From IMG/VR virus record IMGVR_UViG_3300033165_000106: DNA of 64,000 bases; one strand, given 5' to 3'. The stretch's first letter is position 1, and the number at the start of each line of letters is the position of its first letter. A program made the translations under genes and the position numbers. Origin of the DNA: an uncultured virus (IMG/VR IMGVR_UViG_3300033165_000106). Its lineage: Duplodnaviria; Heunggongvirae; Uroviricota; Caudoviricetes. The notes below the pieces were generated by a model. It saw nothing but the letters and a program-made list of their open reading frames with translations. It did not search any database and was not told where the DNA came from. Shown here piece after piece: positions 1-50,323 of the stretch.

Positions 1-2070
1 ACCCACCTTCTTCCAGTCTTCTTTCCAATATAAACCAATTACTGGACCTAAAGACTGCAGTTTAAGTTGTTCTGGATCCCACGATTTCGCGTGTTCGCGG
101 TAGACTTTCTCCCCATCATCCGCCCACCAATCCGAGTATAAATACCCATCCGTTTCCAGAGAGGCTTGATAGAGCGTCATCAACATATGCGGTTGCATAT
201 AATCGTCCGCATCCAACAGAACCACCCGCTCACAACTGGCGTGCTCAAAGCCTACGTTACGAGCGTGTGCTGTGCCTTGCTTGCCCCCATCCACAATCTT
301 TACAAACGGAAATCCAGGCAAAGTCAAGGGTTTTCCTGTATCATTAACCACAATACATTCCCACTCTTTAAGGGTTTGTCCTACTAAAGAGTCCAAAGCA
401 TCCTGCAAGAAGGGAACGTGGAGTGGTCCAACCGGAATCACTACCGAAATTAAGGGAGGACCGTAAGACCAGATCGGACCACCAACTCCGAAAGGCACCA
501 GATGTTCGTATGTCGCCCAGGTGAACCACGAGATCCAGTTCGGCTCTGATTCGGTATGGCTCATCGAGGAAGATCGGTTTCTGTAAATAAGAGTCGGCGC
601 TTCGGTAACTTTGCTTGGAATGAATCCGTAAGAGAAGGCTCGCGTCCAGAAATCCGCGTCTTCCGCCGATCTCATTCTACGACGATAACCCCCCGTGCGC
701 TCCCAGACTTCTCTACGATAAAGAGACGCATACGGAATCTGGTTGCGCTTTTTAATCTGCTCGGAAAAACTCACGGTTTTAGCGTTGGGCCACTTAGACA
801 CCCAGCGGTGCCCGTTTTCCTCAATAAGCTCCATCGAGCCGGTGACGATATCTAACTGAGGATTTTGATCGAGCGCCCTGACTAATCTCCCCAAAGCATC
901 CTCACCTAACATATCATCCGCGTCCAGCGGAATAATATACTTTCCCGTTGAATTTTGAATACCAATATTTCGAGCTTCGGCTAGATAAACATTCTTGGGA
1001 TTGTGGATGACTTTGAAACGATCATCTTCCTGCGCAAACGCTTCGGCTATTGCTCCGCAGGTGTCAGGGGAGTTGTCGTTGACGACGATACACTCCCAGT
1101 CTTTGAATTTTTGATCCTTGACCGATTGCAGGGCGTCTGGTAGATATTGATCCAGGTTATAAGCCGTGACCACAATGCTAACTGTTGGTCCGTAGTCGAT
1201 GGCGAGGGCTTGCTGGTAGGCGCGTAGGTAGCTTTGAATAACACGTTCCCATCTCCAATTCTCTAGTACATCTTGACGAGCGTTTGCTCCTAATTCGTCT
1301 TGATGATCCAAACAATAATGTAATCCATCTAACAGATCATCATAATTTCCGTATTCAGCCAGATAGCCCGTTACCCCGTGTCGAACGATCTCTCGCTGTC
1401 CGCCGTAGTTCCACCCCAAGACAGGCGTAGCACACGCCATTGCTTCGAGCGTACCAACCCCCAACGTTTCTCTAGAGATTGCCAGATAAACACCCGCATT
1501 TTGAATATAAGATTTCATCTTCTCATACGAGAGTTTACCCGTCAGCGTGACGTTAGATGTCTTCTCCCCGAAAGTTGACACAAAGGGAACAGACGAATCC
1601 AGAAAAGCCAGTCGATTCATAGGCGCGGGATCGCAGACCGTATCAACGCGGTTTTTATTCCACAGCACGTAATTTTTATTTTTACCAGGAGTCCAATCTT
1701 CAACATCGATACCGTGATAACACACAACTGGATCGATCAACATCCCGCGCCGAACAGCGTTAGCCACCCACTCAGACGGGGCGGTGACTGCTTTGGCGCT
1801 TTTCATGCTTTTAATCAGAGAATCATTAACCTGTAAATACCACTTGGGCCAATCATACTCTGCCCAATACAGCCCGTGCAAACTCAATACCAATGTATCG
1901 TGATCGACAAAGGATGTAGCGTGACAGTTAGCAACATCCGCTTCTCCAGGTGTATCGACAAACTCTACGCCAAACTCAGGTAGATATTTTCTTTGTGCCT
2001 CCACCACACGGCGAATGCCGCCATCACCTTTGTCGGGCTTATCAAACGAAGGGTTAAGATAGACCTTCAT
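1..2070 (-). CDS. Three-domain glycosyltransferase (GT4 + GT2 + GT2), 3'-truncated by window edge; not in ORF track
   Basis: Manual translation from ATG at 2070: MKVYLNPSF...; GT4 motif ETLGVGTLEAMACATPV; GT2 SIVVTAYN...VVND...ARNIGI...PLDADD; second GT2 ISVVIPV...VVND...ARNVG...LLDADD; open to base 1. Confidence 0.9.
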   Translation of the reverse strand, partial: MKVYLNPSFDKPDKGDGGIRRVVEAQRKYLPEFGVEFVDTPGEADVANCHATSFVDHDTLVLSLHGLYWAEYDWPKWYLQVNDSLIKSMKSAKAVTAPSEWVANAVRRGMLIDPVVCYHGIDVEDWTPGKNKNYVLWNKNRVDTVCDPAPMNRLAFLDSSVPFVSTFGEKTSNVTLTGKLSYEKMKSYIQNAGVYLAISRETLGVGTLEAMACATPVLGWNYGGQREIVRHGVTGYLAEYGNYDDLLDGLHYCLDHQDELGANARQDVLENWRWERVIQSYLRAYQQALAIDYGPTVSIVVTAYNLDQYLPDALQSVKDQKFKDWECIVVNDNSPDTCGAIAEAFAQEDDRFKVIHNPKNVYLAEARNIGIQNSTGKYIIPLDADDMLGEDALGRLVRALDQNPQLDIVTGSMELIEENGHRWVSKWPNAKTVSFSEQIKKRNQIPYASLYRREVWERTGGYRRRMRSAEDADFWTRAFSYGFIPSKVTEAPTLIYRNRSSSMSHTESEPNWISWFTWATYEHLVPFGVGGPIWSYGPPLISVVIPVGPLHVPFLQDALDSLVGQTLKEWECIVVNDTGKPLTLPGFPFVKIVDGGKQGTAHARNVGFEHASCERVVLLDADDYMQPHMLMTLYQASLETDGYLYSDWWADDGEKVYREHAKSWDPEQLKLQSLGPVIGLYWKEDWKKVG

Positions 2071-2836
2071 CCAGATCTCCTAGTTGTGCCTTCATCTCTT
2101 CAAACATTTCTTGGTAAGATTTATCAATCGTTTCGCTGTACAGCGTTCGATCTAACTTCGGATCTTCGACAGAAATAACTTCTTTCTCCCACCCGTAAAT
2201 TTCATTGGCTAGAACCAAAAGATCGTGTTTATTAATGTGTATCTTATTTGAGACGTGATGTAATCCCGAAATAATATCAAGATGGCTCATGATATAGTGG
2301 GACAATTCAACTGTAGTTAGACCATTCCAGTATGAATTTACATAACCTTCAACGGGATTTTCAGCATACTTAAACCAGTACAGAAGCCCGCGCTGAGTGG
2401 GATCAGGGAAACCAACGAAGGATGTTCTAAAGGTAACATGCTCGTTTTTATCGTCCAACTCACCCAAAAACTTACTCATACCGTATAAGGTATCGGGGTT
2501 GGGAATATCTATGTCTGAGTAGCTACCTAGCGATCCTGAAAACACACAGTCGGTCGAAATATGAATCAGTCTGCAGTTAAACTCGAAACACGCCTCTGAC
2601 AACAATTTAGGTCCGAGAGCGTTAATCCTTAAGACATCCATCGTAGATTTATACGTAGGAGATTTGGGTACTACGCCTACACAATTAATGACATAAGTTG
2701 GTTTATAACGATCCAGTATCGCGTAAACCTGCTCTGGGCTGCAGATGTCAAAATCTTCGTGTCCAATACCTACGGTATCGGGATATAGCTTCGAGAGGGT
2801 TTTACCTAAAAGTCCCTGACCTAAGACAAGTATCAT
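2054..2836 (-). CDS. rmlD: NDP-4-keto-6-deoxyhexose reductase (RmlD-like SDR)
   Basis: GQGLLG Rossmann motif, HISTDCVFSG, YGMSK catalytic motif. Confidence 0.85.
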   Translation of the reverse strand: MILVLGQGLLGKTLSKLYPDTVGIGHEDFDICSPEQVYAILDRYKPTYVINCVGVVPKSPTYKSTMDVLRINALGPKLLSEACFEFNCRLIHISTDCVFSGSLGSYSDIDIPNPDTLYGMSKFLGELDDKNEHVTFRTSFVGFPDPTQRGLLYWFKYAENPVEGYVNSYWNGLTTVELSHYIMSHLDIISGLHHVSNKIHINKHDLLVLANEIYGWEKEVISVEDPKLDRTLYSETIDKSYQEMFEEMKAQLGDLDEGLS

Positions 2837-3507
2837 TTCTCCGGCTCCACATCGGCTAACGACTCAGATCCAATATGTCCGAATGCGCCCCACTGATTAA
2901 ACTCATACGGGATATAAATTCTTGGTCCATCTTTGGCGTTAACTTTAGCGCACATATCCAACTCTGTAAGCCCCGGTGTAAGTCCTTCTGCATAATACCC
3001 GTAAGTCTCGTGAAATCGCTTATGGCGTAGAGAAGGATGACCGGTGAATCGATAGGTGTATCCGTTCCTATGTAAGTCCCACAACAATCGATTGTCGTGT
3101 GAGACAAGTTCAGCCTCTAATCCCGCTGCAGCATAACCAAAGCGAATCATACCCGCATTCGGGTTATTCAGCAGAACTTTTGTGTAAGGCTCGACATCTA
3201 ATGGGTTATTAAGATACCAGTCGTCTTCCATCATCAGAATTAAACTGCCGCCCAGTTCATCGAAAACTTTATGTAAAGCCCAATTCATGTTGTGCCCAAC
3301 ACCCTTGCGGTTGCCATCATAGGTGTAAACTGTATAGGATGGACCTACAACCGAGACGAGATGGTTTAGATGATCTGGACCAGATCCGTCATCGGTGATG
3401 ATCCACCCGATATTGTCGTATCGGAAGTTCTCTTTCAAACCTCGAATGGTTATTTCAGCGAGATCTAACCGTTTGTAGGTGGTAAGTATAATCCAGATAG
3501 GTTCCAT
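2833..3507 (-). CDS. Glycosyltransferase family 2 (GT-A)
   Basis: ILTTYKR, ITDDGS, GVGHNMN, MMEDDW. Confidence 0.85.
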   Translation of the reverse strand: MEPIWIILTTYKRLDLAEITIRGLKENFRYDNIGWIITDDGSGPDHLNHLVSVVGPSYTVYTYDGNRKGVGHNMNWALHKVFDELGGSLILMMEDDWYLNNPLDVEPYTKVLLNNPNAGMIRFGYAAAGLEAELVSHDNRLLWDLHRNGYTYRFTGHPSLRHKRFHETYGYYAEGLTPGLTELDMCAKVNAKDGPRIYIPYEFNQWGAFGHIGSESLADVEPEK

Positions 3508-4412
3508 CGGCTACCTACTTTCAGAATTGCGGTCGGAACTTTTTGTTCTCCGTCTATTTCGATGTGTTTAATGACTAAATAGCCTAATCCACACTGCACC
3601 ACGACATGCCCATAGTCTGCGTAATCCAAGATCTGACCAACAACACCTGTGTAGTTATACTTCTTGACTGCTTCTGCTTCCCAGATAATGACTTTCTTGT
3701 TTTTGTAATACGAAAAGGCTCCAGGATAAGGATTACCAACGGCGCGGATTAATCTCTCAATGTCAAAAGAATCTTGATTCCAGTCGATATTTCCGTCTTC
3801 GGGCGTTCTTTTGGCAAAATAAGTTGGATCGCCCGTCTGAGGCAGAGCAGGTATCTCCCACCCATTACGCATAAAGAGGCACAACTCATCGACCATATCC
3901 CGCGTAGCATCGATCACCTTTGTATAAAGGCTGCGGGCTGTCTCTCTGGGATCTAAGTTAATTTCTCGTTGGGATACCAGCGGACCAGAATCAATCCCAG
4001 AGTCAAGATGAAAGATAGAGACACCTGTCTTGTCTTGCTGAGTCAAAATTGCCCACGGAATAACCGCTCGCCCTCTACCTTTAGGCAGTAGAGATGGGTG
4101 CAGACCCAAACATTTATAGTTTAAAATCTCAGATTTAATGAATTGGGACCAGCCAAATACAAAGACGTAATCCGGATCGATCTCTTTAATCTTCTTAACA
4201 ACATCGGGATGGTTGATATCGTCCACTCTCAGAATTGGAGAGGACGTAATAAGCTCCAGATCGAACCAGTCTGAATGTCTGTAGTGTAATTCTTTATGGA
4301 GCGTGATCACCAACTCAGGATGAAAGTCGTTTTTCATCAGTTGATTTAAAGCGTGGGCGCTGAGTTCGATTGCCCCTACGAAGACTATTTTATCCATGCT
4401 GGTTTTTTCCAT
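3465..4412 (-). CDS. N10-formyl-THF-dependent formyltransferase (Fmt/ArnA-like, probably sugar N-formyltransferase); likely start 4397
   Basis: GLHPSLLPKGRGRA, GIDSGP, RAVGNPYPGAFS; within sugar operon. Confidence 0.85.
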   Translation of the reverse strand: MEKTSMDKIVFVGAIELSAHALNQLMKNDFHPELVITLHKELHYRHSDWFDLELITSSPILRVDDINHPDVVKKIKEIDPDYVFVFGWSQFIKSEILNYKCLGLHPSLLPKGRGRAVIPWAILTQQDKTGVSIFHLDSGIDSGPLVSQREINLDPRETARSLYTKVIDATRDMVDELCLFMRNGWEIPALPQTGDPTYFAKRTPEDGNIDWNQDSFDIERLIRAVGNPYPGAFSYYKNKKVIIWEAEAVKKYNYTGVVGQILDYADYGHVVVQCGLGYLVIKHIEIDGEQKVPTAILKVGSRWNLSGLYLPPTNG

Positions 4413-5113
4413 CTCTCGGTTTCTTTGTTTCGCACATCAATCACGAGTTTGTTATAAAAGGCTGCATCGCGTTTGGTAGCCTGATCGGGATGCTCTCTCA
4501 ACCAGCACAGGGGAGTGCCTTCTTTAACCTGAAATATCGTTCCACGAAAATGTACCAGCATGATCGATAACAATAGAGCATCTGGACCGCCCAATGCCGC
4601 TTAAACGGGAAACCCGCCTGTCTTTTTCCATAGATTTTTCGTTACCATGCAGGTGTTGTTAGGCAAAGACATAAGATTTCCACTTTCAGTTACAATTGTC
4701 ACATTATACCACCCATCACGTTTATCCTGCTTTTCGTACTCTTTCCAACATTCTTCGAGACAGGTGGGGTACATGCGATCATCACTGCCCAACATAAAAA
4801 CACACTCGTTTCTGGACAGGGCAACTCCGTAGTTAAAGGCATGAGCTACTCCCGACAACCAGGGACACTTCCAGTAAGACAGGTTCCCTATAGAAAACTT
4901 TCCCCGACTATCATAATATAATGCGGGAAGAATATCATCGACAATGCTCGTATTAACTTGTTTCCATAAGTCGTTGACATTCAGATCCGCCATGTCATCA
5001 ATAATCAAAATCTCATCGGGAGGCTCAGTTTGATATTTAAGACTCTCTAATGCTTCAGGTAGATATTTCTTATAAACTGACTGCGGACCTACGGGGATAA
5101 CGACTGTAATCAT
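4385..5113 (-). pseudogene. GT2 glycosyltransferase split by one in-frame TAA at 4601-4603
   Basis: ORFs 4601..5113 and 4385..4594 share a frame: ...KTGGFPV*AALGGPDALL...; N-part has TVVIPV, IIDD, LGSDD. Confidence 0.7.
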
Positions 5114-5736
5114 GACAGCCTCATAACCTGAAATGCCTCGGCATAAGGGACATTACACTGCATTCCCCGCACTCCGGCTAAATGACGAAGATGATCGAAC
5201 GATCTGTGCCCACGAACCTGTGATTCATATAGATTATACAGCGCGATTTTCTTTTCAACATCGATTGGAATGAACAACTGAGGAATAAACTGCCGGTTGA
5301 ACGTCTGTTGTGTCTCAGGCTGTTCGGCTAACAGGACATTCCGCACGTACCAGTTTTTATCGTGTGATCGAGAGGCAGTCAAAGCCGCTTCATAAATAAC
5401 GCGGTGATCCTGGTTGTAGCTTGGAAAGAGTGTAATGAGTGTATCCGGTTCTACCCAATCAATGACCGATTCAATCTCTGATACGTAAGTTGAAATCGGA
5501 TAACTGTCTAGATTATTAACGTCCATACACTCGCTGTAAGATGTCGTGCATCCTAAAGCGATTCTGACTCGATCTGCTTCCTGCGCGTAAACTTCATCTT
5601 TAACCTGCGGGTGGTGATCGTTGAAATACATGATGTGCAGATCTTCGGCTTGCAACAGCGTTCCGCCCGCCGATAAACATTCGTCGTCTTGATGAACGGA
5701 CAAAAAAAGAATTCTACCCAGGTTTACGGTAGACAT
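5110..5736 (-). CDS. PIG-L/LmbE family N-deacetylase
   Basis: SVHQDDE..GGT, NQDH, KK..LY.SQ, YAEAF motifs. Confidence 0.85.
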   Translation of the reverse strand: MSTVNLGRILFLSVHQDDECLSAGGTLLQAEDLHIMYFNDHHPQVKDEVYAQEADRVRIALGCTTSYSECMDVNNLDSYPISTYVSEIESVIDWVEPDTLITLFPSYNQDHRVIYEAALTASRSHDKNWYVRNVLLAEQPETQQTFNRQFIPQLFIPIDVEKKIALYNLYESQVRGHRSFDHLRHLAGVRGMQCNVPYAEAFQVMRLS

Positions 5737-6250
5737 GCGAGATACCTACTTCCTCTACCAACTCCAAAGGCTGATCGAAATCCTGAATAGCTTGCAGAAC
5801 ACCGTTCGTTCCGTTTTGTTCGAGATCGATCACATCATGTAGAAAGATTAACCCTTTAGGCTCGACATGCGGATACCACGCTCTGAGATCGCCTAAAACA
5901 CCTTCATAAGAGTGATCGCCATCAATAATCAGAAATGTTACAGGACGTTCATCGTACATCTTACCCCAGGTCTTAGAGTCAGCATGAATGAAGTGAATCT
6001 TATCGTGTAACAATCCCGCCGCCTCAAGATGCGCCTTTACCCAATGACAGGTGTTGACATCGATAATATCAAACTCAAACTCTTCATCCTGTTCTTCTAA
6101 GAGAGCTAAAGCCATAACCCCAGGACCAGCGCCGATCATGACTGCTTTATCACACCAATACAGAGAAACTTCGTGGAAAAATTCTATCTCATCTCCAAAG
6201 CAGTATTGCGCTGTTTCGTTGAGTTGGTGAGCAGTTAATTTAGATTCCAT
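5714..6250 (-). CDS. Class I SAM-dependent methyltransferase (Methyltransf_24-like)
   Basis: IGAGPG, IIDGDHSYEGV..D, GLIFLHD. Confidence 0.8.
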   Translation of the reverse strand: MESKLTAHQLNETAQYCFGDEIEFFHEVSLYWCDKAVMIGAGPGVMALALLEEQDEEFEFDIIDVNTCHWVKAHLEAAGLLHDKIHFIHADSKTWGKMYDERPVTFLIIDGDHSYEGVLGDLRAWYPHVEPKGLIFLHDVIDLEQNGTNGVLQAIQDFDQPLELVEEVGISHVYRKPG

Positions 6251-7184
6251 ACAGACGCTCAGTTTCAGTGATCATCTCAGCTAATTCTTCATTCGTAATA
6301 TAGCGTACTGGATTGTTGCTCATATATGAAAACGGAGCGTCTGGATTGCGGTATTCATCGGTAGGGGGGTGAATATAAAAGTGATCTTCATCTTCTTCCA
6401 CGTAAAAAGATTCCGATTCAGACACCATACCTTCGTCTAACTTTTCGCCCGCTCGAATGCCTGTCTCAACAACAGGTAGTCCATCACCAATCACTTCTGC
6501 CAACTGGTAAATATAGGTGCTTGGCGCTTTAGGGACAACAATGTGCCCCGGCTCTGTATCGAGTGCTCTCAGAATTAAATCGATTGCCTGATCTAATGTC
6601 AAGAAGAAGCGCGTCATACGCCGATCTGTAATCGTTAAAGGTCCACCATCTCGTGCTTGCTTTTTAAACAGAAGCCCAACTGACTGATTAGACATCAGAA
6701 CATTGCCATAACGAGTAATGTGAAAAGTTGTTGCATCGTATTTATTGGCGTCTTGAAAAATATACTCGGTAATCTTCTTGACACACCCATAGGCATTTTC
6801 CGGCGACATTGCCTTGTCAGTGGATGTAGTAACAACTTTGTATACGTTATTGTCAATAGCTGCATCCACTACATTCTGAGATCCAATGACGTTGACTTGA
6901 ACGGTTGCGCCGATATTATTCTGTGCCATCGGAATTTGTTTATAAGCCGCAAGATGCAGAACAGTATCAATCCCCCGCATAGCGCGTTTGAGATCGTTAT
7001 ATCGACAAATATCACCTAAAACAAATCTGTGTTGGGGATACTTTTGTTTGAGGATATTCTGTTTAGTTTCGTCTCGACTAAAAATAATAAACTCAGCAGG
7101 CCAACTCTCCCTTTCAGCACGAGCAAGTATCGCTTTTCCAAGACTGCCCGTGCCACCCGTGATCAACACTTTGCCTTCTAACAT
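6240..7184 (-). CDS. UDP-GlcNAc 4,6-dehydratase (PseB/FlaA1/CapD-type)
   Basis: TGGTGSLG, FSRDETKQ, STDKA, YGCVK, RYGNV, MTRFF, GIRAGEKL. Confidence 0.88.
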   Translation of the reverse strand: MLEGKVLITGGTGSLGKAILARAERESWPAEFIIFSRDETKQNILKQKYPQHRFVLGDICRYNDLKRAMRGIDTVLHLAAYKQIPMAQNNIGATVQVNVIGSQNVVDAAIDNNVYKVVTTSTDKAMSPENAYGCVKKITEYIFQDANKYDATTFHITRYGNVLMSNQSVGLLFKKQARDGGPLTITDRRMTRFFLTLDQAIDLILRALDTEPGHIVVPKAPSTYIYQLAEVIGDGLPVVETGIRAGEKLDEGMVSESESFYVEEDEDHFYIHPPTDEYRNPDAPFSYMSNNPVRYITNEELAEMITETERLYGI

Positions 7185-29935: not shown

Positions 29936-30008
29936 TGGGCTTGACAGGACTCGAACCTGCGATATCGTGTTTAGAAGACACGCGCTTTCTCCACTAAGCT
30001 ACAAGCCC
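29936..30008 (-). tRNA. tRNA-Arg(UCU)
   Basis: GGGCTTG/CAAGCCC acceptor, CGTGT-CTTCTAA-ACACG anticodon arm, GGTTCGAGTCC T arm; CCA not encoded. Confidence 0.9.
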
Positions 30009-40751: not shown

Positions 40752-41354
40752 ATGTCATGGCAGAACGTATATGCACAACTAGGAATCACGCCTGAAGATG
40801 AGAGATTGCATAAGACTATGATCATTCATGAGAGGATAGTCAAAGTGTGTACACTGGCCGAAGCTAGCGACCTGGTAGAATTCGAGCAGCCTAACCCCAA
40901 ACACTGTCACGCAATGAAAACTATTGTTGACTGGTCCGAAGCCGGGTATATACCAACACCCGGCGATCTCCTGAACCTACACGCCGAGTTATTCCCTTAC
41001 GGTGGATACTATCGAACCTGCGATGTGTATATCAAAGGATCGTCGTTTGTGCCACCGCGTTACGATCATATTCCCATGTTAATGAGAAATTGGTATCACG
41101 ATATGCTATGGTGGTTGTCCTCCAGGGAAGATCCCTACACAATTCTAGCGGAAGTTCATTTGAAACTGACTCAGATCCACCCGTATTCAGACGGGAACGG
41201 TCGAATCGCTCGTATGGTGCTCAATCATAACGCGACTTATTTAAACCTACCCTTTATCCTGATCTCGCAGCGCAACCGAAATACGTATTTAGACTGTCTT
41301 GAAAATGAGGACGTTCCGGCGCTCGCTCGGCTGTTCAGGAATCTTTCGTTCTAG
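40752..41354 (+). CDS. Fic domain protein
   Basis: GGYYR..DV.I, HPYSDGNGRIAR; upstream TTGACA-16-TATAAT (40590-40617). Confidence 0.9.
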   Translation: MSWQNVYAQLGITPEDERLHKTMIIHERIVKVCTLAEASDLVEFEQPNPKHCHAMKTIVDWSEAGYIPTPGDLLNLHAELFPYGGYYRTCDVYIKGSSFVPPRYDHIPMLMRNWYHDMLWWLSSREDPYTILAEVHLKLTQIHPYSDGNGRIARMVLNHNATYLNLPFILISQRNRNTYLDCLENEDVPALARLFRNLSF

Positions 41355-45786: not shown

Positions 45787-46185
45787 ATGAGATTCAAATT
45801 TGATCCCCAAGCTTTTTGGGACAGTATTCCGTCTGAGGATTCTCCGTACTGGCCCGCCATCTGTATCGACTTCAATGGGGTAATTGATTCCTACACTGGA
45901 TGGAACGGGAAAGTAGAGGATCATCCCCCCGCCCCGAATGCGAGATGGTTTCTGGAAGAGATCCGAGTTCGGTTTTCAACCGTGATTATTTTAACGGCTA
46001 CCCGTCCCTATACGCGGGTGGAAGACTGGTTCATCAAGTACGAGTTAGATCATCTGATTGATTACGTGACGAATGTAAAGGTTCCGGCTGTCTGTTACGT
46101 GGATGATCGCGCTGTCCTGCATGACGGAGATTTTTATCATACATTGATTGATATTGAGCGGTTTAAGCCGCATTGGGAGATGTAA
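45787..46185 (+). CDS. HAD-superfamily phosphatase-like protein
   Basis: ICIDFNGVI (DxN instead of DxD), TATR, K..A..YVDDRA. Confidence 0.7.
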   Translation: MRFKFDPQAFWDSIPSEDSPYWPAICIDFNGVIDSYTGWNGKVEDHPPAPNARWFLEEIRVRFSTVIILTATRPYTRVEDWFIKYELDHLIDYVTNVKVPAVCYVDDRAVLHDGDFYHTLIDIERFKPHWEM

Positions 46186-46186
46186 T

Positions 46187-46576
46187 ATGATATCCGATAC
46201 AGAGTATCAAATTAAAAATGAAGGTGAACGGTACACGGTCAGAGTTGAGTATGAATCTGTTCGTGGTTGTTTTAGAAAAATAACACAAATTAATGTATAC
46301 AGCGATATTGTTATTGTGGTTTGTGATAGTGACGGACGTGCGTTACGGATTCGCCCCTACATTTATTCGTTGAATAGCGAAGTTGACCTGAATAAATATC
46401 AACAGGCGGCTGTTGAAGGAAAACAAAAACTTCTACATGAAATTAACAATGAAACGATTACTGTAAGAGACAATATTTTTGACAAGCCTGGGATTGAGAA
46501 GGAAATAATCTCCACAAAGGAGCTACCTAAATTCCGATGGAGTGGATGGTTTGGGGGGAAGCGAGATGATAGGTAG
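46187..46576 (+). CDS. Hypothetical protein
   Basis: RBS GGGAG; operon packing. Confidence 0.5.
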   Translation: MISDTEYQIKNEGERYTVRVEYESVRGCFRKITQINVYSDIVIVVCDSDGRALRIRPYIYSLNSEVDLNKYQQAAVEGKQKLLHEINNETITVRDNIFDKPGIEKEIISTKELPKFRWSGWFGGKRDDR

Positions 46577-46826
46577 ATCGGTAATAAATATTGAATCTGG
46601 CAAAAAGTTTAAGCAGGTAAAGATATATTATCGGATAGTCAGTGGTTGTATAGAAAATGTTGACTCAATTATTGTCAACGATCTTGTAGAAAAACAATAT
46701 GTGCTTTTTTCTGCTGATCTAGAAGTAGAGGGCGTTTCTGCAGAAAATTATGTGAGCCTTAAAGATTTCAAAGATGCGGCGCAACGGGGCCTAAAGGAAT
46801 TCAAAGAAGAGATTGAGGGATCTTAG
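46566..46826 (+). CDS. Hypothetical protein, weakly similar to preceding gene
   Basis: V...Y..V.GC...(I/V)..I pattern shared with 46187..46576. Confidence 0.5.
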   Translation: MIGRSVINIESGKKFKQVKIYYRIVSGCIENVDSIIVNDLVEKQYVLFSADLEVEGVSAENYVSLKDFKDAAQRGLKEFKEEIEGS

Positions 46827-46828
46827 AC

Positions 46829-47062
46829 ATGCGACTCCTGATGCTCACGCTGCTAATAACATTGAGTGCCTGTTCGACGTGCGTCGTTTCAGATCCAGGT
46901 ACATATCTATATGATAGACCGAGTGGATCGCGTGTACTGGAAATGCCACTTGGAGAGTACGCAATTTATAATCAGGAGGGCGTCTGGTTCGATGTGGATG
47001 TCGGGTTGTATACGGGTTGGGTCAGGGCTGATCAATGCGTGGTCGATATCAACCGAGAGTAA
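46829..47062 (+). CDS. Small lipoprotein with SH3-like domain
   Basis: Lipobox LSAC; LY..PS...W..V...TGWV. Confidence 0.55.
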   Translation: MRLLMLTLLITLSACSTCVVSDPGTYLYDRPSGSRVLEMPLGEYAIYNQEGVWFDVDVGLYTGWVRADQCVVDINRE

Positions 47063-47202
47063 TCTCTTTTCGAGTAGATAGTTTACCGATTTTACATCGA
47101 CAGTGGTGTAGTGGGTGTCAAAAGTATCTGGCAGATCATCTATTCGCAAGTTATAAAAGTGTGTACTGTCGGAAATGCAAACAAAAAATTAACGAAAAGC
47201 AC

Positions 47203-47231
47203 TTGACAAAGCATAATTAGTCTGGTATAGT
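47203..47231 (+). promoter_or_regulatory. Strong sigma70-type promoter of RNA operon
   Basis: TTGACA 47203-47208, 17 bp, TGG-TATAGT 47226-47231. Confidence 0.8.
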
Positions 47232-47238
47232 AGAAAGT

Positions 47239-47359
47239 GGGCCAGCCAAGTTTCGACAGAGGTCAGGGCGAGTCGGTAGTGAGAAGGCGTATAACTTAAC
47301 CACGAAATCTCGTAATAAACCTGATTTTTGGACAGCATTGCAATATGCTCTGGTCCACC
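47239..47359 (+). ncRNA. ssrA: Miniature tmRNA-like RNA (tRNA-like domain only)
   Basis: Acceptor GGGCCAG/CTGGTCC with G3.U70, discriminator A, CC; no D stem, TTCGAC; helix 2 AGAGGTCAGG/CCTGATTTTT; GGAC; T arm AGCAT-TGCAAT-ATGCT. Confidence 0.7.
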
Positions 47360-47361
47360 TA

Positions 47362-47435
47362 GCCCGCTTAGTTTAAAAACGGCAAAACGCGCCTTTTGTA
47401 CAGGTGAGTTCTCGGTTCAATTCCGAGCGCGGGCT
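47362..47435 (+). tRNA. tRNA-Thr(UGU)
   Basis: GCCCGC/GCGGGC acceptor (7:66 mismatch), CGCCT-TTTGTAC-AGGTG anticodon arm, CTCGG-TTCAATT-CCGAG T arm. Confidence 0.8.
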
Positions 47436-47437
47436 TT

Positions 47438-47619
47438 GCAGGACTGAGCCTAGTTTATCTAGTGTAGGTCTTGCTAAAGCGGTGACGAAATTCGGGATCT
47501 TCCGTGTGACACAGACGTGTGTCCTATATCGCCGCTAGTTATCCGCCCCAACGATCCTGGTCTGTCGTTGGGTTTGATATGGGGCTTTGCCGTGTGCCCC
47601 AGACCAGAAACACGGCAAA
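47438..47619 (+). ncRNA. Putative structured RNA(s) with kissing-loop potential
   Basis: Consecutive stems GCAGGACT/GGTCTTGC, AGCGGTGA/TCGCCGCT, CCCAACGA/TCGTTGGG, TTTGCCGTGT/ACACGGCAAA. Confidence 0.5.
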
Positions 47620-47941
47620 ACTTTATATAAAGGATTGAACGTGGTTCCTCTACTCGCTTTCACTATGCTGATCTATATCGTTATTGGCTTTTTGATTATG
47701 CCCTGGTGGAATGCCGTGTTCGCTTTGTTCGCGGCTTTCTTGGGGGCGATGTGGGCTAAAGCACATGCCGAAGAAGATAATCGTTAAAAAGTTTGGAGAC
47801 GTGGATCTCGTGGTGACTAAAAATGCGGAGATGTTCTTAGTGTTGTCGCGCCGGCTTCGGTTTCGCACCTGGTTGGGGCTGAGATTGATTCATCTGGCGT
47901 CATTTGTGATGGGCATGGGATTTGAGGTAAAGGAAAAGTAA

Positions 47942-48532
47942 ATGGATTTTCTACGTCAAGCTTACCTGGATTCGGTTTATTGGGCCAGCGATATTCTAGA
48001 GCGGGATTTTGTCGTGCTCGACACGGAGACAACCGACAAGATTGAAAACGGGGGTGAGATTATCCAGTTGGGCATCATCGATAAAGATGGTCATACTTTG
48101 ATGGATCAGTTGATCAAGCCCAAAGGTAAAATCTCAGCCGGAGCAGCACGAGTACACGGCATTACCGAGAAAGACGTTGCCAAGTCTCCTACGTTTGCTG
48201 ATATCTATCCGCAACTTCAAGATATCTTGAAAGACAAGATTGTCGTTGCTTATAATGCCGAATTCGACCGGAATATTCTGAATAATACCTGCGATCTTTA
48301 TAACCTGGAACACTTTCCGAATATGTGGCAGTGTGCCACGCTGGAGTATGCCAAGTATAACGGCGAGTGGCAACCCTATTTCAAATCTTTTAAGTGGAAA
48401 AAGTTGACAGATGCAGCAACTAAGTTTAATATAGTTACAGACGGCGCTCACGATGCCTGTGCTGATGTGCGTATGACGCTGCAGGTTATGAAGAAGATGG
48501 CAGAAGAGTATATTCCCGCGATTGGAGAATAG
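47942..48532 (+). CDS. DEDDh 3'-5' exonuclease (DnaQ-like)
   Basis: LDTETT, AYNAEFD, AHDACAD. Confidence 0.92.
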   Translation: MDFLRQAYLDSVYWASDILERDFVVLDTETTDKIENGGEIIQLGIIDKDGHTLMDQLIKPKGKISAGAARVHGITEKDVAKSPTFADIYPQLQDILKDKIVVAYNAEFDRNILNNTCDLYNLEHFPNMWQCATLEYAKYNGEWQPYFKSFKWKKLTDAATKFNIVTDGAHDACADVRMTLQVMKKMAEEYIPAIGE

Positions 48533-48533
48533 C

Positions 48534-48860
48534 ATGAAAACCGAAGGAGCAAAGTGGCAGGATCTCAAAGATACGATGGATTGGCACGGAGATATTACTG
48601 ATCTCCGACAGTTCACGTTGATGGTCCTGCTCAAGTATTCAGAGAAGAACAAAGAGGCAGCATTTTCAACCGCTCGATTCTATTTCGATCCTGACTTTGA
48701 GCCTACGGCAATGGATCGCAATTATCACGTTCGGGGTCGGGATGTGCTGTGGACCACCTATCAATTCATTCGTCAAGAGTTAGGCGAAGATGTAGTGGAT
48801 AAGATGTACCGTCTGCCCGTCAACGAGAGAGACTTGTTTGAGGCATTGATCAATGGCTGA
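48534..48860 (+). CDS. Hypothetical protein
   Basis: RBS GGAG, operon packing. Confidence 0.55.
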   Translation: MKTEGAKWQDLKDTMDWHGDITDLRQFTLMVLLKYSEKNKEAAFSTARFYFDPDFEPTAMDRNYHVRGRDVLWTTYQFIRQELGEDVVDKMYRLPVNERDLFEALING

Positions 48861-49164
48861 TAATTTTGATTTTGAAGACGAGTTCGAGCCTGCTGAGGTT
48901 TACGGATATGAGGTTGCCTCCAAACCTGAATCTGCTATTCATGACGGATGTATCGAGTTTGTAGTCAGTAAAATTTGGATTAAGCAGGTCAGCAAACGGG
49001 GCGCTAACGAAGAGACGCGGAGTATTACCTACAGTACGCCGTGGGGCAAAGAAACATCGGTCGTTGTTCCCTTTCAGGACGAATACGAAGTTCCCGAAGG
49101 GATGATTACTCTGGACAATCTAGAGCACGCTATTCGTGAGTTGTTGGAGATGAAGGATAAATAA
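48853..49164 (+). CDS. Hypothetical protein
   Basis: Operon packing. Confidence 0.6.
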   Translation: MADNFDFEDEFEPAEVYGYEVASKPESAIHDGCIEFVVSKIWIKQVSKRGANEETRSITYSTPWGKETSVVVPFQDEYEVPEGMITLDNLEHAIRELLEMKDK

Positions 49165-49165
49165 C

Positions 49166-50323
49166 ATGGGATTCAGCTTTCTAGGTGACGAAAACCTTGA
49201 TCCAATGGAAGAGTTTGAACGGTGTTCGAGAGGCACCTATAAGATCAACGGAATTACCAAGTGGATTTCTAAGGATGAAAACGACAATCCTGTCTGGGAA
49301 TACGACGAACTCCGGCAAGATCTGGTTGTTAAATGCGAACTTCGCCGGGTAGATGGCGAGACGGGTCCGGCTTGGTCGGGCACACCGTTGGATATGTCGC
49401 TGCTGGTCCGCGCTTTCGGGGGCGACATTCACGCGCTGCCTAAGAAAAAGAACACGACTGAATTTCTGGTCAAAGCCGAAGCACTAATCGACAAATCAAA
49501 CGGTACTGTTACTGCCGAAGTTGGTGATTCGGGGTGGGTATCTTACATTCACGAGGCAACTCCCCCCGAAGGGTACTATCAAGTCAAGCTGGTATATGCT
49601 CAGAGTCTGGATGGCAGCGTTCCTCTGACTTTCCAAAAGGGTCAGTTTGGCGATCACGAACAACTCAAACTCTGGTTCGAGATCGTAGGCAACATGCTAG
49701 GTAACGAGACTCCCTACGATGGATACCGTTTCATCTACTATCTCAAGCAGGGATTTGATGGCACACACGAAGGCAGGCCCAACCTGTTGATGACACAGAA
49801 GGGTGCCAAGTCTTATTCGGCTCGTCGCGTCGAAAAGCTGGCGGATATTTTTGCGCCGGAAGTACTTGAAGCGGATTACGGGTGGAAGAATCCTGAAAAT
49901 CCCATTGATGAAATTCTGAACGTTGCTATTGAAGCAGAACGAGTCGCAATCGGACACTACACGTACAACTCTCCCCGCCCGCCGAGAAAACCCCGCCTGG
50001 TACTGGACTTTGATTCGCTGGCCCCAGTCGATGAAGTGCCGGAAACACAAGAACCTGAAGCGGATGAATCGGACGTTCCCCCGAATCTGTTTGCTCTGGT
50101 AGAATGGATTCACGGAGGGGAGCCAAAGGCTTTCGCGTCTTATCCACCCCAAACGATTGAAGATATCCAGTTGACGGATGCCGGTAAGAAGTGGGCGAAT
50201 AAGCACATGGCGAAGCTGATGATCGACGCTCAGTTGGAGCCTAAAGCGAAACCGCTGGCTGAGTTCACCGAAGAAGAGTGTGCGGCGCTCATGGGCGTTG
50301 TCTGGGGTGGCGGTTTCGCATGA
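49166..50323 (+). CDS. Hypothetical replication-module protein (possibly ssDNA-binding)
   Basis: 385 aa, PPEGYY.V pattern, acidic linker, upstream of primase. Confidence 0.55.
   Translation: MGFSFLGDENLDPMEEFERCSRGTYKINGITKWISKDENDNPVWEYDELRQDLVVKCELRRVDGETGPAWSGTPLDMSLLVRAFGGDIHALPKKKNTTEFLVKAEALIDKSNGTVTAEVGDSGWVSYIHEATPPEGYYQVKLVYAQSLDGSVPLTFQKGQFGDHEQLKLWFEIVGNMLGNETPYDGYRFIYYLKQGFDGTHEGRPNLLMTQKGAKSYSARRVEKLADIFAPEVLEADYGWKNPENPIDEILNVAIEAERVAIGHYTYNSPRPPRKPRLVLDFDSLAPVDEVPETQEPEADESDVPPNLFALVEWIHGGEPKAFASYPPQTIEDIQLTDAGKKWANKHMAKLMIDAQLEPKAKPLAEFTEEECAALMGVVWGGGFA

What the first reader, a model, noticed from the sequence alone, without database searches (positions are those of the whole stretch)
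47239..47359. Phage-encoded miniature tmRNA: tRNA-like domain without tag ORF or pseudoknots
Seen: a 121-nt RNA begins ~8 nt after a near-consensus promoter. It has a 7-bp acceptor stem GGGCCAG/CTGGTCC with G3.U70, discriminator A then CC(T), no D stem but TTCGAC (47252-57), a long helix replacing the anticodon arm (47258-67 with 47320-29, continued by GCGAG/CTCGT), the GGAC connector (47330-33) and a T arm with a 6-nt loop. Established: G3.U70 is the AlaRS identity element, and UUCGAC plus GGAC flanking helix 2 mark the tmRNA tRNA-like domain bound by SmpB. Bacterial tmRNAs are ~350 nt; here only 52 nt lie inside helix 2a. I know mRNA-domain-less tmRNAs from jakobid/oomycete mitochondria but not from phages. 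Inference: an alanylatable SmpB decoy that blocks trans-translation, or a tag-free ribosome-rescue RNA.
Basis: partly seen in the sequence, partly recalled or inferred. Interest (0 to 1): 0.92.

Follow-up and report, generated by a model that had tools for sequence, protein, structure and literature searches.

The report
Phage tag-less mini-tmRNA, divergent long form
This sludge phage carries a real small RNA gene that copies only the alanine-accepting, tRNA-like end of the bacterial ribosome-rescue RNA (tmRNA); the kind is already known from mycobacteriophage DS6A and is common in phages, but this copy is an unusual long variant with a shortened T loop.

Summary

It is a tag-less, TLD-only mini-tmRNA.
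- The sister phage has, at the same place (same promoter, same downstream tRNA-Thr), an 88-nt allele. My family model and Rfam tmRNA both recognise that allele.
- A loose motif scan of IMG/VR gave 114 of 120 sampled hits as perfect G3:U70 mini-tmRNAs.
- A model built from 62 such RNAs, without the window, ranks 47239-47357 first in the window (34.7 bits, E 3.5e-6).

Three caveats apply.
- Rfam and my first, narrower model do not detect this copy.
- It lacks the family's D-loop GG and its 7-nt T loop. One unrelated phage RNA (L452) shares exactly these two departures, so they mark a subclass rather than decay.
- Alanylation, SmpB binding and the effect on tagging are inferred, not shown.

That is wrong: DS6A is published. 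This scan has also reported phage mini-tmRNAs repeatedly on other DNA.

Verdict: a new variant of a known kind, of moderate interest.

The parts
47203..47231 (+). Sigma-70-type promoter: TTGACA, 17-nt spacer with extended TG, TATAGT. The predicted start is at or 1 nt before G47239.
   Evidence: 11 of 12 consensus positions. The promoter region is conserved in the sister contig (47150-47232 is 92.8% identical to L001 2902-2984).
47239..47359 (+). Mini-tmRNA gene (TLD only): 119 nt through the discriminator, plus the encoded CC.
   Evidence: R2 34.7 bits, E 3.5e-6, 47239-47357.
47239..47245 (+). Acceptor stem, 5' strand GGGCCAG (G3 at 47241).
   Evidence: Pairs 7 of 7 with 47350-47356. Two pairs are compensated relative to the L001 allele.
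47246..47257 (+). D-region analogue CCAAGTTTCGAC. It has no D stem, ends in UUUCGAC, and has AG where the family has GG.
   Evidence: GG is present in 92 of 93 canonical minis. L452 shares AG.
47258..47329 (+). Inner arm of 72 nt. It comprises a 10-bp helix 2 (47258-67 with 47320-29), a 6-nt AAUAAA bulge, a 5-bp helix (47268-72 with 47309-13) and a weakly structured tip. No conserved reading frame is present.
   Evidence: Population variants at 47260, 47262 and 47308 keep or extend pairing. The inner sequence is not significantly similar to that of L452.
47330..47333 (+). GGAC connector.
   Evidence: It is invariant in the alignment of family members, but the scan pattern required it.
47334..47349 (+). 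T arm: AGCAT stem, 6-nt loop TGCAAT, ATGCT.
   Evidence: The loop is atypical: 0 of 45 T arms sampled without a T-arm constraint have 6 nt. L452 has the same loop.
47350..47359 (+). Acceptor stem 3' strand CTGGTCC (U70 at 47354), discriminator A47357, and CC 47358-59. The terminal A is not encoded.
47362..47435 (+). tRNA-Thr (TGT), 2 nt downstream of the CC and probably co-transcribed.
   Evidence: ARAGORN places it at 47361-47436; Rfam tRNA, 46.8 bits.
47547..47572 (+). Terminator-like hairpin with a weak T tract, after the tRNA-Thr.
   Evidence: This is a consensus scan only.

Best explanation
The 47239-47359 gene encodes a tag-less mini-tmRNA. It consists of the alanine-accepting tRNA-like domain (TLD) of tmRNA, closed by a plain helical arm in place of the pseudoknots and the tag message.

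Inferred pathway:
- Host RNA polymerase transcribes it early from a consensus promoter, together with tRNA-Thr.
- RNase P cleavage at the tRNA-Thr 5' end frees its 3' side.
- The short trailer is trimmed and CCA is completed by host enzymes.
- Host AlaRS charges it through G3:U70 and A73.
- The UUCGAC/GGAC junction binds SmpB, and EF-Tu binds the acceptor/T helix.

Because it carries no message, the RNA competes with host tmRNA for SmpB and for stalled ribosomes. Incomplete proteins made during infection would then not receive the SsrA degradation tag.

Shown here:
- the gene's anatomy;
- its conservation as structure;
- its membership of a large, phage-enriched family that includes DS6A.

Inferred only: expression, processing, charging, SmpB binding, and the effect on tagging.
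For: 1. All TLD signature elements are present and far beyond chance.

2. Synteny. The sister phage is 93% identical in the exonuclease protein and 97% in the helicase protein. Between the same promoter and the same tRNA-Thr it has an 88-nt RNA with G3:U70, AUUCGAC, GGAC and a 7-nt T loop.
- The RNA gene is the one stretch between promoter and tRNA-Thr where DNA similarity is lost; the aligned blocks around it (45787-50000) are 78-92% identical.
- Two acceptor pairs and all five T-stem pairs differ between the alleles, yet all still pair.
- That allele scores 56.6 bits (L001) and 60.0 bits (L009) with R1. With Rfam RF00023 it scores 49.1 bits (L009, above the gathering score of 47) and 41.2 bits (L001).

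3. Family.
- 114 of 120 hits have a perfect 7-bp acceptor stem, G3:U70 and discriminator A, none of which the pattern specified.
- On a MAFFT alignment of 36 of these, 97.2% of cells pair and 14 of 19 pairs show double changes. None of 500 shuffles reached the observed values.
- The same pattern in bacterial and archaeal genomes gave only 5 minis among 120 hits.

4. DS6A's published TLD-only gene belongs to the family (R1 58.3 bits).

6. A variant allele in another study differs at 4 places in its 170-nt contig (47191-47360), all within the RNA.
- Two differences in helix 2 keep pairing (A-U to G.U, and G.U to A-U).
- One adds a U.G pair.
- One lies in a loop.

7. L452, from an unrelated contig, has the same AG D-region and the same 6-nt UGCAAU T loop. 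It also has a 7/7 G3:U70 acceptor stem and scores 37.8 bits with R1.

8. Literature.
- A TLD-only molecule strongly inhibits tmRNA, perhaps by titrating SmpB (PMC4131195, passage).
- A TLD-only tmRNA accepts the peptide in vitro (PMC3895274, passage).
Against: - Curated models do not see this copy. There was no RF00023 or RF02544 match at E<=10 in a 351-nt search, and ARAGORN calls no tmRNA.
- The narrow family model R1 gave nothing with default filters. With filters off it gave 9.9 bits, E 2.4, starting at an internal GGGCGAG at 47266. That score is below the tRNA-Arg in the same window.
- R2 contains the syntenic allele and L452, so it is not fully independent.
- The copy lacks the D-region GG found in 92 of 93 canonical minis. 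It also lacks the 7-nt UUCRANU loop found in 45 of 45 T arms sampled without a T-arm constraint. In tRNA these bases form the D-loop/T-loop elbow, so folding or SmpB and ribosome fit may differ.
- Only one other RNA (L452) shares this form.
- No SmpB gene is present among 107 window ORFs or in the complete sister genome. Any partner protein must therefore come from the host, and the host is unknown.
- The one contig from an RNA library (X20, 47112-47310) starts upstream of the promoter and cannot show transcription.
Confidence: 0.6

Rival explanations
1. It is a working rescue RNA rather than a decoy. Ala-mini-tmRNA with SmpB enters stalled ribosomes and takes the nascent chain. The complex is then resolved without a degradation tag, as proposed for the message-less mitochondrial tmRNAs. 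Alternatively a micro-message in the inner arm is read: window CUU AAC CAC GAA AUC UCG UAA UAA, L452 AUG CAC GAG AAA ACA GCC UGA.
For: - A TLD-only tmRNA supports peptidyl transfer in vitro (PMC3895274 passage).
- Message-less organelle tmRNAs are conserved together with SmpB (PMC11915505 passage).
- Full-length tmRNAs with 2-residue tags exist (same passage).
- Both subclass members show a short frame containing CAC GAR that ends in stop codons.
Against: - The inner regions of the window RNA and L452 are not significantly similar: 329 of 1000 shuffles score as high.
- The L001 allele has a different 40-nt inner part.
- Most family members have only a 13-34-nt hairpin there.
- The putative frames lie largely inside predicted helices.
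- One population variant changes a codon of the putative frame, AUC to AGC, while improving base pairing.
Confidence: 0.15
2. It is a tRNA-like RNA used for something other than trans-translation. One option is a processing or stability module for the co-transcribed tRNA-Thr. Another is a decoy for host factors that recognise tRNA or tmRNA acceptor ends, such as toxins, nucleases, or defence proteins with SmpB-like domains.
For: - In both alleles of this lineage the RNA sits 2-4 nt upstream of tRNA-Thr under one promoter.
- The elbow elements are altered in this copy.
- Defence systems with SmpB-like domains have been predicted (PMC11090510 passages).
- T4 carries tRNA-like stable RNAs of unknown function in its tRNA cluster.
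Against: - In the wider family only 19 of 120 loci have another tRNA or tmRNA call within the roughly 300 nt held on each side, so a tRNA partner is not general.
- G3:U70 and discriminator A are kept in 114 of 114 minis and in the window, L001, L009 and L452. This argues for selection on alanine identity.
- The SmpB-contacting UUCGAC/GGAC junction is kept.
Confidence: 0.15
3. It is a decaying, functionless remnant of a canonical mini-tmRNA.
For: It fails Rfam and R1. It has lost one T-loop base and the D-region GG. An internal near-copy of the 5' strand (GGGCGAG at 47266) hints at past rearrangement.
Against: - All helices are intact: 7/7, 10/10, 5/5 and 5/5.
- The strong promoter is kept.
- Variants in another study preserve pairing.
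- The allele occurs in many sludge, landfill and bioreactor assemblies.
- An unrelated phage RNA shares the same two departures with intact helices.
Confidence: 0.07

Closest known systems
'TLD only' (CDS-less) tmRNA of Mycobacterium phage DS6A (JN698994 28478-28557; tmRNA Website tmID 11587; Hudson, Lau & Williams 2014, PMC4131195; PMC11915505)
   Same: Both are phage-encoded. Both have a 7-bp acceptor stem with G3:U70, discriminator A, no D stem, a helix in place of the anticodon arm, a T arm, and no pseudoknots or tag frame. DS6A scores 58.3 bits with R1, the same family model that recognises the window's syntenic allele. The proposed role is also the same (SmpB titration).
   Different: - DS6A is 80 nt with a 30-nt inner hairpin carrying the family's CCGCACGCGG motif. 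It has GGTCGAC and GCAC at the junction and a canonical 7-nt TTCGATT loop.
- The window RNA is 119-121 nt with a 72-nt arm. It has UUUCGAC and GGAC, AG instead of GG, and a 6-nt UGCAAU loop.
- Rfam RF00023 gives 43.2 bits for DS6A and nothing for the window.
Bacterial tmRNA (SsrA; Rfam RF00023)
   Same: The tRNA-like domain signature is shared: G3:U70 acceptor stem, UUCGAC, GGAC, T arm and discriminator A.
   Different: The window RNA has no mRNA-like domain, no resume codon with a conserved tag, and no pseudoknots. It is about 120 nt rather than about 350 nt. The curated model does not match it.
Message-less organelle tmRNAs (jakobid and oomycete mitochondria, Rfam RF02544; ~65-bp plastid forms in Mallomonadaceae, PMC11915505)
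   Same: Both are tmRNA reduced to the tRNA-like part with no tag reading frame.
   Different: The organelle forms are cellular-organelle genes that co-occur with a targeted SmpB, and the mitochondrial genes are usually permuted. The window gene is a standard-order phage gene, with no SmpB found in the window or in the complete sister genome. There was no RF02544 match.
Phage T4 species 1 RNA (rnaC), a stable tRNA-like RNA in the tRNA cluster (AF158101 70908-71046)
   Same: Both are small stable-RNA genes beside phage tRNA genes, with an acceptor-like stem and a T arm.
   Different: rnaC has no G3:U70, no UUCGAC and no GGAC. R1 gives only 20.8 bits, through the T arm. It is not a TLD.

Membership tests
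tmRNA tRNA-like domain / phage TLD-only mini-tmRNA | 7-bp acceptor stem with G3:U70 | tested here: met
   GGGCCAG/CTGGTCC pairs 7 of 7, with G47241 opposite U47354. The family keeps this in 114 of 114 minis.
tmRNA tRNA-like domain / phage TLD-only mini-tmRNA | Discriminator A and a CCA end, encoded or addable | tested here: met
   A47357 followed by CC is encoded, and the final A is not. In the family, CCA is encoded in 33 of 114.
tmRNA tRNA-like domain / phage TLD-only mini-tmRNA | No D stem; D region ends in UUCGAC | tested here: met
   CCAAGTTTCGAC at 47246-57.
tmRNA tRNA-like domain / phage TLD-only mini-tmRNA | GG in the D region (partner of the T loop in tRNA-like elbows) | tested here: not met
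   The window has AG. GG is present in 92 of 93 unique canonical minis and in 45 of 45 in the second sample. L452 also has AG.
tmRNA tRNA-like domain / phage TLD-only mini-tmRNA | GGAC connector before the T arm | tested here: met
   47330-33.
tmRNA tRNA-like domain / phage TLD-only mini-tmRNA | T arm of 5 bp with a 7-nt UUCRANU loop | tested here: not met
   The stem pairs 5 of 5, but the loop is the 6-nt UGCAAU. In a sample taken without any T-arm constraint, 45 of 45 have the 7-nt loop. L452 shares the 6-nt loop.
tmRNA tRNA-like domain / phage TLD-only mini-tmRNA | Helix 2 closing the domain between UUCGAC and GGAC | tested here: met
   A 10-bp helix. Two natural variants keep pairing. In the family all four helix-2 pairs that were counted covary.
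tmRNA tRNA-like domain / phage TLD-only mini-tmRNA | Match to the curated tmRNA models (Rfam RF00023, RF02544) | tested here: not met
   There was no match at E<=10 in 351 nt. All 8 other minis tested do match RF00023, at 43.2-72.4 bits, with 7 above the gathering score. The L001 allele scores 41.2 bits.
tmRNA tRNA-like domain / phage TLD-only mini-tmRNA | Match to a family covariance model built without the window | tested here: inconclusive
   R1 (36 canonical minis) gives no match with default filters and 9.9 bits in the wrong register with filters off. R2 (62 minis including long forms, DS6A, L009 and L452) gives the top hit, 34.7 bits, E 3.5e-6, in the right register.
tmRNA tRNA-like domain / phage TLD-only mini-tmRNA | No pseudoknots and no conserved tag reading frame (defines the TLD-only form) | tested here: met
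   Only 72 nt lie between UUCGAC and GGAC, and they fold as a helical arm. No frame is shared with L001. Similarity to the L452 inner region is not significant.
tmRNA tRNA-like domain / phage TLD-only mini-tmRNA | Alanylation by AlaRS; binding of SmpB and EF-Tu | not testable with these tools
   This needs biochemistry.
Ordinary tRNA | Cloverleaf with D stem and anticodon arm; match to tRNA models | tested here: not met
   ARAGORN and Rfam tRNA call only 47361/2-47435/6 and 29936-30008.

The most novel reading that the evidence does not exclude
The window RNA and L452 define a distinct structural class of phage mini-tmRNA. In this class the D-loop/T-loop elbow has been remodelled in a linked way: GG becomes AG, and the T loop is shortened to UGCAAU. 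Helix 2 is also extended into a long arm. This lineage exchanges whole mini-tmRNA alleles as a cassette between a fixed promoter and tRNA-Thr. Such a class might be tuned to a particular host's SmpB or ribosome, might act without the normal elbow contacts, or might carry a micro-message (CAC GAR ... stop) read after transfer.
Probability: 0.12. Interest if true: 0.65.

Novelty: new variant of a known kind. Interest (0 to 1): 0.45.

Why it matters
Trans-translation is the main bacterial ribosome-rescue and protein-tagging pathway. How phages deal with it is little studied. In print I found one phage TLD-only tmRNA (DS6A) with a titration hypothesis. My text searches for mini, TLD-only, truncated or tag-less tmRNA found no survey of such RNAs.

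Three results add to that picture.
- These RNAs are frequent in uncultured phages and rare in cellular genomes (114 of 120 against 5 of 120 sampled pattern hits).
- One lineage swaps alleles at a fixed locus.
- A form exists that the standard tmRNA models miss.

Together these give a concrete, cheap experimental handle. Two natural alleles and a canonical one can be expressed and compared for alanylation, SmpB binding and SsrA tagging.

For annotation, the finding warns that ARAGORN and Rfam miss such genes. ARAGORN called 15 of 120 minis, 8 of them as ordinary tRNAs.

Tried and rejected
1. Close relatives by DNA: blastn of the locus against 50,697 phage records found nothing (L452 likewise).

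2. Protein anchors.
- The exonuclease and the helicase found only one related IMG/VR contig.
- A distant relative at 39% exonuclease identity (L002) gave no R1 match in the 8.5 kb held. 80 metagenome loci with distant exonuclease homologues have no such RNA by my descriptor.
- The large terminase found nothing in genome contigs.

3. Narrow patterns.
- One search gave 5 loci: 1 true (the sister contig) and 4 chance hits in coding sequence.
- The pattern built on the window's own acceptor stem gave 0.

4. The scan with a 41-71-nt inner region gave 76 loci, of which only 8 are genuine intermediate forms (89-118 nt). The rest are full-length phage tmRNAs or tRNA arrays.

5. MAFFT could not align the window and L001 RNAs sensibly.

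6. Mini tag frame: considered and not supported.

7. T4 rnaC/rnaD as relatives: rejected.

8. Expression: the RNA-library contigs (X20; X19 is probably DNA) cannot show a transcript or its ends.

9. Host: only a weak hint. Cellular homologues of the exonuclease at about 40-43% identity are named Chloroflexota or Anaerolineales, and the phage occurs in sludge, landfill and bioreactor metagenomes.

10. Mao et al. 2009 (the DS6A and inhibition experiment) is not in the library. I know it only as cited in PMC4131195 and PMC11915505.

11. No earlier scan note matches this sequence.

Full report
**What is there**

The window is part of an uncultured tailed phage. It encodes a large terminase, a family A DNA polymerase, a primase, a DnaB-like helicase, an integrase and two tRNAs. 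No whole genome is held for it.

At 47203-47231 lies a near-consensus promoter: TTGACA, a 17-nt spacer with TG, then TATAGT, matching 11 of 12 positions.
- acceptor stem GGGCCAG/CTGGTCC with G3:U70;
- a 12-nt D region with no stem, ending in UUUCGAC;
- a 10-bp helix continued by GCGAG/CUCGU;
- GGAC;
- a 5-bp T stem with the 6-nt loop UGCAAU;
- discriminator A, then CC.

The minimum-energy fold reproduces this architecture at -37.1 kcal/mol with z = -2.39. tRNA-Thr(TGT) starts 2 nt after the CC. A terminator-like hairpin follows at 47547-72.

A descriptor with these elements finds only this site in the window. It found one site in 400 dinucleotide shuffles, and none when G3:U70 and discriminator A were also required. 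The descriptor was written after reading the finding.

**Standard detectors are negative**

ARAGORN calls no tmRNA. Rfam finds only the two tRNAs at gathering scores. It finds nothing on the candidate even at E<=10 in a 351-nt search.

**The sister phage**

The exonuclease gene next door led to IMG/VR contig IMGVR_UViG_3300007354_000004. It is 93% identical in that protein and 97% in the helicase. It is a complete 81-kb genome with terminal repeats.

In that contig the promoter is conserved (92.8% over 83 nt), and so is the tRNA-Thr (80.5%). The stretch between them cannot be aligned. It holds an 88-nt RNA:
- acceptor stem GGGUCUG/CAGAUCC, with G3:U70 kept and pairs 4 and 6 compensated;
- AAGGUAUUCGAC;
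- a 40-nt inner part;
- GGAC;
- T arm CGGGG-CUCAAUU-CCCCG, with all five stem pairs different from the window's yet all paired;
- discriminator A, with no CCA encoded.

A metagenome contig (L009) carries the same allele with a UUCAAUU loop.

In other samples, contigs join the promoter flank to the tRNA-Thr flank while skipping the window's RNA, at 47220 to 47359 and at 47232 to 47362. The RNA gene therefore behaves as an exchangeable cassette in this lineage.

The sister genome has no SmpB gene and no full-length tmRNA. Its mini is the only match to Rfam tmRNA and to my model.

**The family**

A motif scan of IMG/VR used TTCGAC, 10-40 nt, GGAC and a canonical T arm.
- 114 of the 120 have a perfect 7-bp acceptor stem, G3:U70 and discriminator A, none of which the pattern asked for.
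- The 114 comprise 93 distinct sequences of 62-82 nt, and CCA is encoded in 33 of them.
- The other 6 failed the acceptor test.

I aligned 36 of these with MAFFT. On that alignment 97.2% of cells pair, and 14 of 19 pairs show changes on both sides. No shuffle out of 500, and no slid register, comes close.

The same pattern in one genome per prokaryotic species gave only 5 minis among 120 hits. The rest were mostly 3' ends of full-length tmRNAs.

Rfam's tmRNA model matches all 8 minis I tested, at 43.2-72.4 bits. Seven are above the gathering score. The set includes two long forms of 114 and 118 nt, and L009 at 49.1 bits.

Eight intermediate forms of 89-118 nt exist among the 76 hits of a second scan.

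ARAGORN calls only 15 of the 120 minis, 8 of them as ordinary tRNAs. Nineteen of the 120 loci have another tRNA or tmRNA call within the flanks held.

**Precedent**

Hudson, Lau and Williams 2014 list 'Mycobacterium phage DS6A (TLD only)'. They note that a similar molecule strongly inhibits tmRNA, perhaps by titrating SmpB (PMC4131195, passages). The 2025 tmRNA database paper repeats this and adds plastid forms of about 65 bp (PMC11915505, passages).

I located the DS6A gene at JN698994 28478-28557. It scores 58.3 bits with my family model.

This scan's earlier notes report phage mini-tmRNAs many times on other DNA, including long forms of 105-122 nt. None of those notes matches this sequence.

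Text searches for mini, TLD-only, truncated, tag-less or minimal tmRNA found no paper that surveys such RNAs in phages.

**Is the window's copy a member?**

Model R1, built from 36 canonical minis, scores the syntenic alleles at 56.6 and 60.0 bits. It does not report the window RNA with default filters. With filters off it gives 9.9 bits (E 2.4 for the whole window), starting from an internal GGGCGAG at 47266. That is below the tRNA-Arg at 17.6 bits.

The reason is visible in the sequence. The copy has AG where 92 of 93 canonical minis have GG. Its T loop has 6 nt, whereas all 45 T arms in a sample taken without any T-arm constraint have the 7-nt UUCRANU loop.

My last IMG/VR scan asked for the 6-nt loop plus TTCGAC, GGAC and TCCA. 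It found one locus, L452, on an unrelated 90-kb contig. That locus holds a 100-nt RNA with:
- a 7/7 G3:U70 acceptor stem;
- the D region UAAUAGUUUCGAC, again with AG;
- a 10-bp helix 2;
- GGAC;
- T arm AGGGC-UGCAAU-GCCCU;
- discriminator A.

R1 scores it at 37.8 bits in the right register. Rfam tmRNA does not match it.

I then built R2 from 62 minis aligned to R1. The set includes DS6A, long forms, L009 and L452, but not the window. The next hit is the tRNA-Arg at 17.6 bits. E-values from these models are rough, and R2 contains the syntenic allele and L452, so it is not fully independent.

I read this as membership of the family through a distinct subclass, currently with two members.

**Selection on this allele**

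A contig from another study (X19) carries the window-type allele with four differences.
- 47260 A>G turns the A22-U89 pair into G.U.
- 47262 G>A turns the G24.U87 pair into A-U.
- 47308 T>G adds a U35.G70 pair next to the second helix.
- 47291 A>T lies in a loop.

No signature element changes. The stretch, or parts of it, is held by runs of 22 studies, mostly sludge, landfill and bioreactor metagenomes. Two of those runs may be the source of this DNA.

**A message?**

The inner arm contains short frames ending in stops (window LNHEIS**, L452 MHEKTA*).
- The two inner regions are not significantly similar: 329 of 1000 shuffles score as high.
- The L001 allele shares no frame.
- Much of each frame lies within predicted helices.

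I treat a micro-tag as unsupported but not excluded.

**Mechanism**

Established knowledge is as follows.
- G3:U70 with A73 suffices for AlaRS (recalled).
- SmpB binds the TLD at the D-loop side (PMC8363625 passage).
- A truncated tmRNA with SmpB and EF-Tu binds the ribosome (same paper).
- A TLD-only tmRNA accepts the peptide in vitro (PMC3895274 passage).

From this I infer that the RNA is made early with tRNA-Thr, freed by RNase P, completed to CCA and charged with alanine. It would then compete with host tmRNA for SmpB and for stalled ribosomes, so that truncated proteins escape SsrA tagging.

None of these steps is shown here. For this copy the altered elbow makes SmpB and ribosome fit less certain than for canonical minis.

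**Verdict**

This copy is a divergent long variant that curated models miss.

Noticed in passing
L001:3165-3217 (sister contig IMGVR_UViG_3300007354_000004, just downstream of its tRNA-Thr): About 438 nt lie between the tRNA-Thr and the next aligned block in the sister contig, where the window has only 96 nt (47439-47534). It begins with a stretch that matches the consensus of bacterial 23S rRNA model positions 1098-1133 at 36 of 36 bases (21.2 bits, E 1.7e-4). From recall, this is the uL11-binding GTPase-associated centre. Another sample shows the start of the same sequence (X19 loose end at 47438). No ORF there exceeds 66 aa. It may be a phage-borne rRNA-fragment mimic beside the mini-tmRNA operon. 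The window has no such motif.
   Followed up: partly
window 47233-47361 and 47439-47534: Between the window and the sister phage, DNA similarity is lost exactly over the RNA gene and again just after the tRNA-Thr, while aligned blocks across 45787-50000 are 78-92% identical. Contigs in two other samples join across the RNA gene. This is a small recombination hot spot around the tRNA-Thr.
   Followed up: partly
L089-L208 and L285:1000-1030: Many canonical minis share an inner motif of A-rich bases followed by a small CCGC-loop-GCGG hairpin. By a loose regular expression it is in 34 of 93 unique sequences. DS6A has it too. Its role is unknown, and the window RNA lacks it.
   Followed up: partly
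window 40752-41354 (+): A 200-aa ORF with a Fic/DOC domain (Pfam PF02661, E 3e-17) lies in the early region about 6 kb upstream of the RNA. Enzymes of this family modify host proteins, some of them translation factors (recalled).
   Followed up: no
window 2054-7184 (-): The phage carries a cluster of sugar-modification genes. Pfam domains are RmlD-like, formyltransferase N and C, family 2 glycosyltransferase, PIG-L deacetylase, methyltransferase and Polysacc_synt_2.
   Followed up: no
L452:291-376 (-): There is a weak match to the Rfam 'drum' RNA motif (31 bits, gathering score 43, E 9e-4) directly downstream of the L452 mini-tmRNA.
   Followed up: no
window 47266-47272: An internal GGGCGAG resembles the 5' acceptor strand GGGCCAG, and R1 prefers it as the start. 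It may be a trace of a past duplication inside the arm, or chance.
   Followed up: no
L331:2409-2547 (T4 rnaC): T4 species 1 RNA has a canonical T arm and an acceptor-like stem. R1 gives 20.8 bits, E 1.3e-4 in 5 kb, but none of the tmRNA signature elements are present.
   Followed up: yes
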